Shown here: one piece after another, positions 12,001 through 42,000 of the stretch
Position numbering within the stretch: the stretch's first letter is position 1
Layout: every line of letters begins with the position of its first letter
From: Bryobacterales bacterium
GTDB lineage: Bacteria > Acidobacteriota > Terriglobia > Bryobacterales > UBA6623
Assembly: GCA_965247305.1 (NCBI GenBank)
Contig: OZ252030.1
Coordinates: forward strand, 253,262 to 317,261
Reading direction: 5' to 3'
Length of the DNA stretch: 64,000 nucleotides
Program-made: the position numbers

Positions 12001-15000
12001 GGGGGACCAAAACATCCCGTAGATCGCGCCTTCGGTGCCCGGGATTGGCCTCTGTTCAGGACGGTCAAGGCTACGAAGCCAAAGCCGGCTCGGAATCTCA
12101 TCTGAGACGTAGACGATATGTCGTCCGTCCGGCGAAATGCGGACCACATCGACGTCCCGCGGGTAACCAGCTTCCGGCGTCGGAGTGATTGTGAAGTGGC
12201 GGACCACGGCTCGTCGCGGCTCAGGCCGCTCGAAATACCAAAAGGCTAGTCCCATGCCAATAGCTGTAAACGCAACGCTGGCAGCCGCAAATGTGAGCCA
12301 GCCTTTGGCTGCCCCTTTGACGAGTCGAACGGTGGGCTCTGGGTCCGCGGATCGGACAGGATTCTTGTGCACCATCGCCAGGTCTACGGCGACTTCGTCA
12401 GCGTGCTGATAGCGCTCGGCCGTCGACTTAGCGAGGCACTTGTTTACGAAGATCTCGAGATCCATCGGGACCCCTGTGCGCAGTGCGGTGATCGGCTCGG
12501 GTTCCTCGTTGAGGATGGAATACATGATGGCCTTGTCGTAGTCGCCTCTAAAAGGCTGTCGGCCGGTGACCATTTCGTAGATCACTACGCCTAGCGCCCA
12601 GATGTCGGTGCGGTGGTCGGTGCCGGAGGCCTCCGCCTGCTCGGGCGGCAGGACTATAGCAAAACCATAACCTCCTTGCCTTCAACACTTCTGTCTGAAT
12701 CATAGGTTATATCCTTATTTATCAACCTTCTAAGCTTGACATCCACTGATACTAGCGCCACACTCACAGTCAGATCGACGCCATTAGTCTGCTGACATAG
12801 TGATGACAGCATGAGAAACTCCAACTCCTTCGTTCGTTGTCCACCTAGCGCGGCGTCAAGGAGGCTCTATGCGCCTAACTGAGAAGACCATCCGCGCCAT
12901 TCCGGGATCTGATCGCTGGTCCGAGCAGGACCGCAAGCGAGGCTACCGACTCAGCTGGGACGACGAACTCAAAGGGTTCGGCCTGCGCACCACTTCCGCC
13001 GGCGCGAACAGCTTTGTCTATAACTACCGCACCACGGACGGGCGTCAACGAAGGGCGACCGTGGGCCGCTGGCCGGGCATGACCGCTACCGCGGCGCGGG
13101 CTGCCGCTGTCAAACTGCGTTCGTCAGTCGACGGTGGCGGTGACCCCCTCGCGGCGATCCAAGGCAGACGAGGCGAGTTGAGCTTCGCTCGACTCGTTGA
13201 CGAGTTCGCCGAGCGACATTTGTCGAAGTTGCCCTCGGGCTCCGAGACCGAGCGTATGTTACGACGTGATGCGGTCCCGATGCTGGGGAAGATGAAGGCC
13301 TCAGACGTCAGAAAACGGGATGTCATCGCTCTCTTCGACCAAAAAGCCGCTACCGCGCCGGTTGGGGCGAATCGCTTGCTGACGTCAATCAGCCGCGTTT
13401 ACAACTGGGCGCTCAAGCGTGACCTGATCGAAACCGGCAACCCCGCGGCGCTAGTCGCCAAAGCGCCCGAACGTTCGAGGGACCGAGTGTTGAGCGAAGG
13501 CGAACTGGTGACAGTATGGCAGCGGTTGGACGACGCGCCACGGCTGGGTCTACAGACCGCCGATGCGTTACGAATGATCCTGTTGACGCTGGCGCGTCCG
13601 GGCGAAGTGGCGGGCATGCTCTGGGATGAGATCGAAGAGGACTGGTGGCAGATCCCTTCAGAGCGAGTGAAGAACCGGCACACCCATCGCGTACCACTGA
13701 ACAAGCTGGCGAGGGAGATCTTGGCCAAAACGACGCAAGAGTCCGAATATGTCTTCAATGCCCCACAAGGCGGCCAGCTGCCGCGGATGAGGTTATCCGA
13801 CGCCTTGAGCAAGAGCCGCGAGTACTTCGGCGTGCCGGAGTTCAAACCGCACGACTTAAGGAGGACCGCCGCTAGCCATATCGCGGCGCTCGGCACGCCA
13901 CGCTTCATCGTCGAACGGCTTTTGAACCACGCAGATCGGTCCGTGACGGGGATCTATGATCGCTATGAGTACGGCAAGGAAAAACAAGCGGCGCTCGATG
14001 CCTGGGATCGCAAACTGCGGGCGCTACTATTCGGGGAGCGTGCGGAAGTTGTGGAGCTCTCAAGATGAAACGAAAGCCCGTCAGAGTTCGGGACCTCACG
14101 CCGGAGCAACTCACTGAACTCCGGCGCCTGGCGAGCGAGCACCAAGCACCACGGAAACCCGGCAACGCCCTCTATAGGCAAGACGTGTCGATTTCGGAAG
14201 AGGACTGGTTCGCTATGCCGACAGGGCTGGAGGCGGTCGAAGCGGAGACGGTTGCGTTTCTCGAGCGGAGCGGGTTTCGCGCGAAGATTCCAGATGTTCA
14301 CGAGGCTGGCAAGTCCCGAGACGCGCTCGTGGTTCAGGCATACGAATGCTGGATATCTCTACTGGCGACCAAAGAAAATGCGCGTCTGGAAAATTGGGCA
14401 CAAGCGATCTCTTCAGCGGTTGATACGGGTCGAATGTTTGAGCGCCTGGTGGCGATTGAACATTTCCAGAAGCCCGTCAAGACTGGGCGAAAGATCATCG
14501 ACGCCAATAAACTTCGCACGGAACGACGTCATGGGACGCCAGAAGAACGGGCGCGTCGAACTGCAGAAATGTTGAAGTTATACGGGGAACTGTACAAGGG
14601 TCCAGGAACTGGGGAGCGCACCTACCGAACAATCGCCAAACGCTTCAACCTCACGCCGGATAGCGTCAAGAGGCGCATACTAGCGGCCCGTAAGAAGAGC
14701 TAAAAAAGGTGGGGCTCTCCCCCTGGAGGCCCCAGGAGTGTAGTGGCTACCGTTAGCTTCAGAGGCTAAACGAAATGCCACAAGACATCATTGAGATACC
14801 CGCAGGCGTCGCGTTCTCCGAAGCTGAAACGGCGAGGATCTTCGGGGTTTCGTTGCGAACCCTGAGACGGTGGAATGAGTTGCGACGCGGGCCTGTTCGA
14901 GCGCACATAGGACGCAGGCCCTATTACACACGCGGGGCGCTGCTCAGATACATCCATTACCAAGATGAGGGGAACCAGTGAGCACCGCCAGGCCTCTGGC

Positions 15001-39000: not shown

Positions 39001-42000
39001 TGGGTCGCGTATAAAACGACTCATATCCGCGCTGTGGCAAAAAGGAGCGCAAGAGCGCAAGTGAAACCACGCCTATCCGCCGATCCGTGCGGGGCGATCG
39101 GGGACAGGGGCGATCGGGGACAGGGGTAAAACTTCGCAAACCTTTATATAACATCAGTGAGAACGGCGCTGACAAACTAGACCACAGAACGGCGTTTTAA
39201 AGCCGTTCAAGGGCGGCGGAAAATTAGACCGCCCGGGTGGTCCGCTGGCATCCATTCGGTGTTTTGTGGAACACGGGAAGGATGTATCGCGTGGAGCTAT
39301 ATGCTCAAGTACGGCGCAGTGTCTACGTCGAAGGGCTGAGTGAACGCGAAGCCGCCAAGCGGTTTGGCTTAGCGCGGGAGACGGTGCGCAAAATGCTGCG
39401 CTACGCTGCTCCGCCGGGCTATCGGCGGAGCAAACCGGTGAGACGGCCGAAGCTCGAAGCGTTCACCGGAATCATCGATCAGATCCTGCTCGACGATCAG
39501 CAACAACCAAAGAAACAACGTCACACCGCGAAACGCATCTTCGATCGCCTACGCGAGGAGTACGATTTCAGCGGTGGCTACACGATCGTCAAGGACTACG
39601 TCCGCGAGAAGAAGCTCGGTGGACAAGAGATGTTCGTGCCACTGGCGCATCCGCCCGGCGACGCGCAGGCCGACTTCGGCGAAGCGGTTGTCGTTATCAA
39701 TGGAGTCCAGCGCAAGGCGCACTTCTTGGTTGTCGATCTGCCGCACAGCGACGACGCCTTCGTTAAGGCCTTTCCCGCCGAGACGACGGAAGCCTTTTGC
39801 GAAGGACACAACGCCGCGTTTCGTTATTTCGACGGCGTGCCACGCAACATCGTCTACGACAACACGACGCTGGCGGTGGCAAGGATTCTCGGCGACGGCA
39901 CGCGCAAACGTACGCGGGTGTTCAGCGAACTGCAGTCGCACTACCTGTTCGCCGATCGTTTCGGGCGTCCGGGCAAGGGCAACGACAAGGGAAAAGTCGA
40001 AGGGCTAGTGGGCTTCGCACGGCGCAATTTCATGGTGCCGATCCCGAGATTCGAGAGTTGGGAAGCCTTCAACGAACACCTCGAAGAGAAGTGCCGAGCC
40101 AACCGTGAACGGCGTTTGCGACGGCACACCGAAACCGTCGGCGAACGCTTCGAGCGCGATCGGGAAGCGCTCTTGCCCTTGGCACCGACAGCCTACGATG
40201 CCTGCGACAAACGCTCGACAAGGGTGACTTCGTTGTCGCTGGTGCGCTACGCGACAAACGATTATTCGGTGCCAACGCGTTACGGCCACCGCCAGGTCCT
40301 GATCAAAGCCTACGTGGATGAGGTAGTGATCTGTTGCGGCAGCGAAGAGATCGCCCGCCATCAGCGCAGCTATGAACGTGAAGAGTTGGTTTTCGATCCG
40401 CTGCACTACTTGGCGTTGTTGGAACGCAAGACCAACGCGCTCGATCAAGCCGCGCCGTTGGTCGGCTGGGAGTTGCCGCCGGAGTTTGCGAAGCTGCGAC
40501 GACTGCTCGAATCGCGGTTGGACAAAGCGGGCAAGCGCGAGTACGTACAGGTCCTGCGACTGTTGGAGGACTTCCCCCTTGAGCACGTCGCAACGGCGGT
40601 GCGCCAAGTCTGTCTACTGGGAACGATTGGCTTTGACGCCGTCAAGCATCTACTGCTGTGCGCGATCGAGCAACGTCCGCCGAAGCTCGACTTAACGAAG
40701 TATCCCCACCTGCCGACGGCTCAGGTCGAGCAGACGTCGCCGGCATCCTATCTGGCGCTGCTAGCAGGAGCAAGCTGATGGCGAAGTCGAGAATGCTGCT
40801 GGAAACCCACCTGAAAGCGCTGCGGCTGCCGACCTTCCTGCGCGAGTACGACAAACTGGCTCGGCGCTGCGCCGCCGAAGGCTTGGACTTTCGGGACTTC
40901 CTACAGCAACTCTGCGAGCTGGAACTGGTCGATCGCGAGCAGCGGGCGACCGAGCGTCGCATCAAGGCCGCCAAGTTCCCGGTGACGAAGAGTCTCGACA
41001 CGTTCGACTTCTTGGCCATACCCTCGGTGAACAAGAAGCTCGTTCTGGAGCTGGCGCGCTGTGAGTTCATCGACCGCCGTGAGAACGTCTTGGCGCTGGG
41101 GAACTCCGGCACCGGCAAAACGCATATCGCCTTGGCGCTGGGACTGGCAGCTTGTCAGAGCGGCTATCGCACACGTTTCACCACCGCCGCGGGATTGGTC
41201 CATGAACTGCTCGAAGCCCGTGACGAACGGCAACTACTACGGGTCCAGAAACAACTTGCCAAGCAGGATCTACTGATCGTCGATGAACTGGGCTATGTGC
41301 CGCTGTCGAAGACCGGGGCAGAGCTGCTGTTCGAGATCTTTTCGCAGCGCTACGAACAGGGCTCGACGTTGCTGACCTCGAACCTGCCGTTCACCGAGTG
41401 GACCGAGGTGCTGGGTTCCGAACGCATGACCGGCGCTCTGCTTGACCGGCTCACGCATCACGTCCATATCCTCGAGATGAACGGCGACAGCTACCGCCTC
41501 AAGCAAAGCAAAAAGAAGCGCCCGCGCTCTTCAAACTGACCCGCCGGCCGCTCGCGCCGGTTTGCGTGGGCCGTCTTCCACTACGCCTGGGCCGCCCTAA
41601 AGGGCGTCCTCAGGCTCCGTTCCAGCCGTCCCACGCAAACCGCTGGATCCCCGCCAACTGGTCTATTTTTGCTCCGCCGAAGCGGTCTACATTTACTCCG
41701 CCCTTGACACCTTAAGCATAATTCCAAGCCTCCTCAAGCGAGGCAGGGGTAAGTACTGTTCGACAGCTTGTTACGGTCGCGTTTTCACGGCTAGTCAAGA
41801 GCTGCTCAATCTGATCAACCTAAAATGACCCGACGTCGACGCTCAGCCAAAGCCATTCACTGCCATTGAGACGCCATCAACTCGTTGACATAGTGATGAC
41901 AAAATCCTGTGAGCCGCAGGAAACATATCCATTATATATTGATAATAAAAGAGTTGTATCAACTTGCATCGACAATAAGTCCTGCTCGGGGGACATGTAG

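What a model noticed while it worked through the whole genome (the two positions that open the first line are those of the whole stretch)
12660..41987. Satellite-like island that integrates into Ser/Thr kinase genes at the SPEQ codons and carries Rhs toxins
A phage-satellite-like element (399-aa tyrosine integrase, excisionase, DNA-polA protein, small and large terminase, portal, no capsid) has integrated repeatedly into different Hanks-type Ser/Thr kinase paralogs, always at the subdomain-VIII codons (Y/F)MSPEQ, splitting them. It uses the genome's kinase expansion (57 genes) as attachment sites and carries Rhs toxin-immunity operons.
Evidence so far: Seven kinase N-halves (g00258, g00623, g00858, g03210, g03643, g04156, g07344) stop at SPEQ and continue into one and the same element end; five integrase ends (265921, 3959842, 4909000, 5383441, 8362650) join different kinase C-halves; the joined att core CCCGA(A/G)CAG is flanked by an inverted repeat. 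Whole copies with both halves in line: 265921-295248 (29 kb) and 8321086-8362650; Rhs genes inside or next to the ends. Search 106 found nothing.
(Added by a program. Inside this text positions count along the whole contig: contig position 253,262 is position 1 of the stretch shown here. "Call 12" and the like, gene names such as g00115 and contig names such as C1 are that model's own, and its searches are not shown. The text may have been shortened before it was handed on; [...] marks where a part breaks off. The agent that wrote the report below was given it as the finding of a first reader that could run no searches.)

Follow-up and report, generated by a model that had tools for sequence, protein, structure and literature searches.

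The report
Integrase retargeted to kinase gene family
A phage-satellite-like element has split seven different serine/threonine kinase genes of one bacterium at the same seven bases of their conserved M-S-P-E-Q codons, likely because its integrase, whose closest relatives insert into a valine tRNA, switched to this motif and gained dozens of landing sites at the likely cost of each kinase's activity.

Summary
Confirmed, with corrections. A 29.3-kb element (12648-41985) splits a kinase gene. A same-genus genome holds the uninterrupted gene. Genome-wide, 5 integrase ends and 7 far ends all join kinase halves at one 7-bp overlap, CNCCNGA, giving seven insertions. The joined site is AGTCCTGC-7bp-GCAGGACT, whose arms match the tRNA-Val anticodon stem. 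Only kinases with TCN serine are hit (7/27 versus 0/27, p=0.010), and one insertion crossed a 1-bp mismatch. A ~95%-identical element in two other studies' samples joins a sixth kinase C-half, so targeting is not confined to this genome. Neither junction pattern marked a real junction in 400 other genomes of the order. The core has a PolA-like gene, terminase and portal but no capsid. The window's small terminase is identical to that of a resident tailed prophage. Rhs cargo lies near 5 of 7 far ends, also in tRNA-targeting siblings, and is absent from the second whole copy. No excision or chimeric kinase was seen. Our scan had no earlier match.

The parts
10531..12647 (-). Kinase C-half (from P-E-Q through subdomains IX-XI, membrane segment, PD40/TolB-like propeller); no in-frame start supplied by the element end
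   Evidence: ortholog continuous in G001
12641..12655 (-). Integrase-end junction: element arm AGTCCTGC (12648-12655) and 7-bp overlap CGCCCGA (12641-12647)
12793..12808 (+). Doubled TGACA motif, predicted arm-type integrase site; also before related integrases
12869..14068 (+). 399-aa tyrosine integrase with arm-binding domain; R243 K268 H328 R331 H354 Y363 present
14065..14703 (+). 212-aa protein with a weak C-terminal HTH match, likely a regulator
   Evidence: E 0.0015, below cut-off
14775..14981 (+). 68-aa HTH, likely excisionase; the 77-aa gene at the same place in the sibling element matches PHROG 66
15465..16133 (+). 222-aa protein of no known family, in all five copies
   Evidence: no hits
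16120..19086 (+). Family-A DNA polymerase-like gene (600 aa in three other copies), split here by an IS at 17596-18766
19710..20180 (+). Small terminase, identical in protein sequence to that of the resident tailed prophage; about 110 nt upstream 92% shared
20177..23014 (+). Large terminase (557 aa when whole; 86.6% to the prophage's), split by an IS at 21620-22790
23014..28010 (+). Portal gene in pieces (frameshift, IS21-type 23887-26339, IS 26726-27896); 543 aa in two other copies, 30% to the prophage portal; end approximate
28346..30897 (-). IS21-type element (IstA/IstB), about 65 copies in the genome
30960..36778 (+). 1727-aa Rhs protein with a hydrophobic N-terminus and a variable tip after DxxG, followed by an overlapping 212-aa gene (likely immunity)
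36792..39064 (+). 580-aa orphan Rhs core with another tip, and an overlapping 188-aa gene (likely immunity)
39158..41709 (+). IS21-type element
41710..41992 (-). Far end: doubled TGACA motif (41886-41901), 84 nt to the overlap, arm GCAGGACT (41978-41985), host-derived overlap CCCCCGA (41986-41992)
41986..42515 (-). Kinase N-half (glycine loop, HRDIK, DFG, up to YMSPEQ); reads 34 codons into the element and stops

Best explanation
A phage-satellite-like element sits at the same seven bases of the M-S-P-E-Q codons in seven different kinase genes of this genome, and its tyrosine integrase likely put it there after switching from a tRNA-Val anticodon arm to this motif. Shown: the joined element site is AGTCCTGC-[CGCCCGA]-GCAGGACT, and tRNA-Val has CCTGC-[7-base loop]-GCAGGA. 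Shown: kinase codons with TCN serine give TGT-[CNCCNGA]-RCA, a short inverted pair around seven bases. Shown: the element carries no replacement for the kinase 3' part, so the frame breaks. Inferred: the integrase kept its arm recognition, acquired a new overlap (possibly from an IS1380-targeting relative, whose integrase end resembles this one) and tolerates a third-codon mismatch. Inferred: the element excises, replicates with its PolA-like module and is packaged using a resident prophage with the same small terminase. Inferred: IS elements later broke and moved most copies. The kinases are collateral, redundant landing sites rather than a programmed switch.
For: 12 of 12 element ends in the genome are at kinase SPEQ in one orientation. 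The empty ortholog of the window gene in G001 has overlap CCCCCGA, kept at the far end while the integrase end has CGCCCGA. G001 orthologs pair two more separated halves (96.7/95.7% and 91.4/91.7%) and identify two N-halves whose C-half is lost. Intact database homologs pair the second whole copy (N-part 78-80%, next best 55%). 7 of 27 ATGT-type kinase sites are hit and 0 of 27 others (p=0.010). The tree places the integrase with tRNA-Val integrases L101 and L102 (support 0.97) and the in-genome one (0.907). The far-end spacer is 84 nt against 85 for tRNA-Val ends and is most like them (z 4.3). Runs X5 and X7 (studies P2, P3) hold a ~95% identical element joined to another kinase C-half absent from this genome. 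Small terminase identical, and large terminase 86.6% identical, to a tailed prophage.
Against: No joined circle junction appears in the contigs laid (contigs drop rare forms). Neither junction pattern marked a real site in 400 other genomes of the order; three matches were chance or an intact kinase, so the lineage is narrow. The sixth C-half rests on 19 and 31 loose letters plus six aligned bases, and the two runs show the same insertion. Overlap origin is mixed: at two far ends G001 has CGCCTGA where this genome has CGCCCGA, and at one G001 has CGCCCGA where this genome has CACCCGA, so mismatch tolerance is firm for the window copy only. No primase was found in the core, the portal is only 30% like the prophage's, and packaging is untested. 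The tree is one FastTree run, with 0.777 support for the sister pair.
Confidence: 0.85

Rival explanations
1. The element is a defective prophage derivative, not a satellite: a packaging stub plus Rhs cargo that spreads only inside the chromosome by excision and re-integration, and is never packaged.
For: The same terminase-portal module lies behind prophage-type genes at two other places. The portal lacks the C-terminal domain of the prophage portal and is followed directly by cargo. Copies are nearly identical within one genome. No relative was found in viral contigs.
Against: A 95% variant exists in other samples, while the close genome G001 lacks the integrase, which suggests horizontal arrival. 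Close relative L102 has a PICI-like layout. The shared small terminase and upstream region fit use of a helper.
Confidence: 0.3
2. The integrase is merely relaxed, recognising a short motif that happens to be enriched in kinase genes; there is no adaptation to kinases.
For: The host site keeps only TG of the left arm. The clade retargets often: IS1380, several tRNAs, gene 3' ends and a TolB-like gene. Three matches to TGYCGCCCGARCA outside the listed kinase sites are free, too few to tell.
Against: All 12 ends plus the outside one are in kinases. An 82% variant end keeps the same core, so the specificity has been kept over divergence. This differs from the best reading only in whether kinase use is selected.
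Confidence: 0.35
3. Regulated gene integrity: the host uses excision to switch particular kinases on.
For: No replacement sequence, and precise excision would restore the frame. PMC10111431 (Discussion read) treats such cases as regulated gene integrity.
Against: Different paralogs are hit in different strains. All 20 such sites in G001 are intact. Two genes have halves 0.67 and 1.27 Mb apart and two lost their C-half. No conserved target.
Confidence: 0.07
4. Assembly artefact that joined a repeat to repeated kinase sequence.
For: The genome is rich in repeats (IS families of about 119, 65 and 41 copies).
Against: Junctions appear in separately assembled contigs, with matching depth ratios. 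Orthologs pair the halves exactly. Another lineage shows the same register.
Confidence: 0.02

Closest known systems
Helper-embedded PICIs (PMC10111431; passages and Discussion read)
   Same: Satellite with a tyrosine integrase from a clade that changes site often, disrupts protein genes without a replacement sequence, has a doubled motif at fixed spacing from the core, and can occur several times in a genome.
   Different: Those target prophage late genes and use a primase. This one targets a codon motif shared by a host signalling family, and has a PolA-like gene, large terminase and portal.
PICI and cf-PICI satellites (SatelliteFinder, PMC10085698; passages read)
   Same: Integrase, excisionase-like regulator, replication module, small terminase, cargo after the packaging genes.
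   Different: No primase-replicase found; large terminase and portal present (unlike PICI) but no capsid, protease, HNH or adaptors in the core (unlike cf-PICI); 29-41 kb against a median of 9.5 kb for PICI.
IntDOT of CTnDOT (PMC2817482; abstract read)
   Same: Arm-domain tyrosine integrase that recombines across mismatches in the overlap and uses several host sites.
   Different: Here the overlap is mostly identical and one mismatch is documented; relationship between the two enzymes was not tested; the sites are one protein motif.
Multi-targeting large serine recombinases (PMC10083194; passages read)
   Same: One integrase, many target genes, defined by a short motif.
   Different: Serine chemistry and unrelated target genes; the word kinase does not occur in that main text. 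Here the targets are paralogs hit at one homologous position.
tRNA anticodon-loop integrases (recalled: Williams 2002; retargeting through secondary sites, Rutkai 2006; neither retrieved)
   Same: 7-bp overlap flanked by the stem's inverted repeat; the nearest relatives here use exactly that in tRNA-Val.
   Different: The tRNA replacement segment is overwritten and the overlap now matches S-P-E codons.

Membership tests
Lambda/P4-type arm-domain tyrosine integrase element | Arm-binding, central and catalytic domains with R-K-H-R-H-Y | tested here: met
   Pfam PF13356, PF22022, PF00589 above cut-off; residues present
Lambda/P4-type arm-domain tyrosine integrase element | 7-bp overlap flanked by inverted core sites, with arm sites at both ends | tested here: met
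   (by sequence; binding not assayed)
Lambda/P4-type arm-domain tyrosine integrase element | Excision to a circle | tested here: inconclusive
   no joined junction among contigs shown; contigs cannot show absence
PICI | Integrase | tested here: met
PICI | AlpA/MerR/Stl-type regulator | tested here: inconclusive
   68-aa HTH without its own passing family hit; sibling's gene matches PHROG 66
PICI | Primase-replicase module | tested here: not met
   core ORFs give DNA_pol_A and an unassigned 222-aa protein, no primase
PICI | Small terminase | tested here: met
   PF05119
PICI | No other structural genes such as large terminase or portal | tested here: not met
   large terminase and portal present
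PICI | Mobilised by a helper phage | not testable with these tools
   only indirect: shared small terminase
cf-PICI | Own capsid, protease, HNH, head-tail adaptor and connector | tested here: not met
   only two capsid genes in the genome, the prophage's and its identical duplicate inside one copy
cf-PICI | Large terminase and portal | tested here: met
Rhs polymorphic toxin locus | YD repeats and Rhs core ending in DxxG, variable tip, adjacent small gene, orphan modules | tested here: met
   TIGR03696 above cut-off; tips differ between copies
Rhs polymorphic toxin locus | Toxic tip neutralised by the downstream protein | not testable with these tools
   no toxin or immunity family hit

The most novel reading that the evidence does not exclude
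The element works as a kinase shuffler. Nearly all junctions share one overlap and one reading frame, so recombination between the far end in kinase A and the integrase end in kinase B would fuse A's catalytic N-half in frame to B's C-lobe and sensor domain (propeller, TPR, TolB-N), while inverting or deleting chromosome. A parasite would thus rewire the host's expanded kinase family. No chimera was found in the 8 intact genes that could be tested.
Probability: 0.12. Interest if true: 0.85.

Novelty: new variant of a known kind. Interest (0 to 1): 0.63.

Why it matters
It shows a site-specific integrase using the codons of a conserved catalytic motif as a multi-copy attachment site across a paralogous signalling family. 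The descent is readable from the sequence (tRNA-Val stem kept, loop replaced), so how integrases change target becomes directly testable with a 7-bp swap. It also names a route by which kinase expansions in these bacteria are eroded, and possibly recombined.

Tried and rejected
IS1380 as nearest target: rejected; those integrases form a separate clade, and mapping both ends puts their shared block about 3 bp off this element's overlap, so my first idea of an identical overlap was dropped. Kinase targeting in other assembled genomes: 0 real sites in 400; G001 has no such integrase; no relative in viral contigs. Among 80 genome and 32 metagenome loci only the window's own copies had a kinase joined at the integrase end (L026 has a short kinase piece about 0.9 kb away, beyond a tRNA-Pro site). 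Chimeric intact kinases: none in 8 testable of 20 G001 sites; 5 map to split genes and 7 have no close ortholog. G001 flanks could not pair the second whole copy or the 4124039/3959829 halves; the latter pair is by elimination only. No RNA holder listed. The atlas gave nothing for the 222-aa protein. Ten literature searches listed no kinase-motif-targeting integrase; most hits were seen as listings only. Mageeney 2020 was not held, and the 1.75-million-island TIGER/Islander table (PMC12424338, whole text read) could not be searched; either may contain such islands. PMC12884075: two passages read, no kinase mention. No supplements were opened. Earlier scan notes: nothing relevant. The Rhs distance list used a partial list and was not used; one search is the full one.
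Full report
Observation. The window lies at 253262-317261 of a single 8.55-Mb contig. The closest named relatives of its integrase are Bryobacterales MAGs. Between 12648 and 41985 sits an element flanked by the two halves of one Ser/Thr kinase gene on the minus strand. The N-half ends at YMSPEQ and runs 34 codons into the element. The C-half resumes at PEQ behind the integrase end. The genome has five identical integrase genes and six matching far ends plus one 82% variant. All 12 ends join kinase halves in the same register and orientation. Over 3,130 nt the other four copies differ from the window's by 0, 1, 1 and 3 bases, so the spread is recent.

The site. Joining the two ends gives AGTCCTGC-[CGCCCGA]-GCAGGACT, an 8-bp inverted repeat around seven bases. 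A doubled TGACA motif lies near each end; I read it as the arm-type site. Host sites read ATGT-[CNCCNGA]-RCAR. That motif occurs 27 times in the genome against about 1 expected, the same 27 as the kinase sites with ATGT. Of 54 motif-bearing kinase sites, 7 of 27 with ATGT are hit and 0 of 27 others (Fisher p=0.010). The M-S codons must therefore supply TGT, the partner of RCA on the other side.

Real insertions into once-intact genes. G001, of the same genus, has no copy of the integrase. It carries the window's kinase continuous across the site, next to the same rtcR neighbour, with overlap CCCCCGA; there the gene is broken further upstream by an IS. The window keeps CCCCCGA at the far end and has CGCCCGA at the integrase end, so this insertion crossed a 1-bp mismatch. 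G001 has 20 TCN-type sites, all intact. They pair N3638037 with C4908987 (now 1.27 Mb apart and inverted) and N4716470 with C5383454 (667 kb apart), and show that N992649 and N704410 lost their C-halves. Database homologs of C8362663 have N-parts 78-80% like N8321074 against 55% for the next paralog, so the 41-kb copy is cognate too. The last pair (4124039, 3959829) is by elimination. That gives seven insertions. Against a simple rule of overlap inheritance: three other far ends differ from their G001 ortholog in ways that could be element-derived or silent divergence.

Beyond this genome. Contigs of the best-holding sample, which may be the assembly's source, give element-to-flank depth of 21/5.6 and 53/9.4 and show three junctions separately. 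Runs X5 and X7, of two other studies, hold an element with 146 and 144 differences in 2,835 nt. It is joined at the same register to a kinase-type C-half that is not in this genome. Both runs show the same insertion, on 19 and 31 loose letters. In 400 other genomes of the order the two junction patterns matched two and one genomes; these were unrelated sequence and an intact kinase. The lineage is narrow but not private.

Origin. The nearest integrases with DNA context are L101 (72%), L102 (67%) and an in-genome paralog (64%). All three sit at a tRNA-Val anticodon arm. The genome's tRNA-Val(CAC) and (TAC) read CCTGC-[7]-GCAGGA, the same arms as the element. The tree nests the kinase integrase with them (0.97, 0.907), apart from the IS1380 pair, and all three domains agree. 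The far-end spacer is 84 nt, against 85 in tRNA-Val ends and 86 in a tRNA-Arg end, with the tRNA fragment overwritten (z 4.3). The 72 nt at the integrase end instead resemble the IS1380-targeting elements (z 3.2 and 4.1; tRNA-Val ends 0.6 or less). Their junction reads TCCTGCTGCCCGA, one base from this element's left arm plus overlap, although their own crossover lies about 3 bp away. I infer a mosaic: a tRNA-Val-type enzyme that picked up a new overlap, possibly from such a junction. This step is speculative. Retargeting through secondary sites is recalled from the lambda literature and was not retrieved.

Gene content. The core is integrase, a 212-aa protein, a 68-aa HTH, a 222-aa unknown, a 600-aa family-A polymerase-like protein, small and large terminase and a 543-aa portal. 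No primase was found. In the window, IS copies break the polymerase, large terminase and portal. A fragment of a cargo gene follows the portal directly, so no capsid gene lies between. The only two capsid genes in the genome are in a tailed prophage near 7.2 Mb and in an identical head block inside the 41-kb copy. The window's small terminase is identical to the prophage's, with about 110 upstream bases 92% shared; the 41-kb copy's own is more distant. This fits helper use and recent exchange, but packaging is untested. By the SatelliteFinder criteria (PMC10085698, passages) it is neither PICI nor cf-PICI.

Cargo. A search with the Rhs core gave 35 hits. Rhs lies within 3-5 kb of 5 of 7 far ends and within 11 and 23 kb of two other integrase ends. 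None lies in the 41-kb copy or near 704401 or 5383441. Rhs also fills tRNA-targeting siblings, such as the tRNA-Lys element at 2586763-2623725. Tips vary and small genes overlap their stops, but no toxin family was hit. Rhs is family cargo, not part of the kinase targeting.

Mechanism. Shown: register, site structure, codon preference, cognate pairs, absence of a replacement sequence. Inferred: the integrase acts on TGT-N7-RCA sites with some mismatch tolerance, the element excises and re-integrates, uses the prophage for transfer, and is then broken up by IS families of about 41-119 copies. Loss of kinase activity follows from established kinase structure (subdomains IX-XI are separated from the N-half) and was not assayed. 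Host-programmed switching is unlikely, since targets differ between strains and four of seven genes can no longer be restored by simple excision. Cross-copy recombination would give in-frame chimeric kinases, but none was found in 8 testable genes.

Novelty. Integration into protein genes is common (43.4% of islands, PMC12424338, whole text read). Clades that retarget are known (PMC10111431), as are mismatch-tolerant (PMC2817482, abstract) and multi-targeting integrases (PMC10083194, passages). Ten searches listed no integrase that uses a catalytic-motif codon string across a paralog family. The main catalogue paper was not held, so this is a limited negative. Verdict: real, a new variant of a known kind, interest 0.63.

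Noticed in passing
G000:C1 992800-1012000, 3641000-3646000, 4719000-4754000, 2610038-2615009, 4590772-4595539: A repeated cassette of a 986-aa CHC2/Toprim primase, a 328-aa XerC-like recombinase and a short Rhs core with a different tip each time (7-9 copies); it may be a mobile unit that captures and stacks Rhs tips. One literature search found nothing.
   Followed up: partly
G000:C1 3973069-3984606 and 4-6 copies: Operon of a weak secretin-like gene, a 1508-aa CARDB protein and an 1842-aa Rhs, several with hydrophobic N-termini; possibly a secretion route other than type VI.
   Followed up: no
window 15465-19086: Replication module of a 222-aa unknown plus a PolA-like exonuclease-polymerase without primase, shared with the tRNA-Val sibling at 4000806, while relative L102 has a primase-type gene instead.
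   Followed up: partly
L221/L225 (G403) and L222/L226 (G402): Elements of 32-33 kb inserted at the same LLLP codons of IS1380-type transposase genes in two genomes, a second multi-copy target in this integrase clade.
   Followed up: partly
L018 / L168 (G008:C11 near 560200): A 44% relative adjoins a TolB-like propeller reading frame of the kind found in kinase C-termini, at a different position; its other end was not identified.
   Followed up: partly
L004, L007, L014, L019, L029: Other relatives sit at the 3' ends of a sigma factor, a gene before an fliM-like gene, a methyltransferase, a gmhA-like gene and an unknown gene (labels read from translations, not tested against families).
   Followed up: no
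G000:C1 about 7202000-7245000; duplicate at 8329895-8340044: Tailed HK97-type prophage (terminase, portal, protease, capsid, adaptors, tail genes) whose head block is duplicated inside the second whole copy.
   Followed up: partly
G000:C1 1123245 and 4764257: tRNA-Val-type far ends with the tRNA 3' fragment that continue into non-tRNA sequence and have no integrase behind them; possibly remnants of tandem arrays.
   Followed up: partly
run X5, window 12616: The contig of the variant element ends exactly 30 bases past the second overlap position, where an assembly graph would branch if an uninterrupted allele with another serine codon were present; weak hint only, not seen in X7.
   Followed up: no
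window 8878-10467: RtcR-type sigma-54 regulator directly beyond the kinase C-half, the same neighbour as in G001.
   Followed up: no
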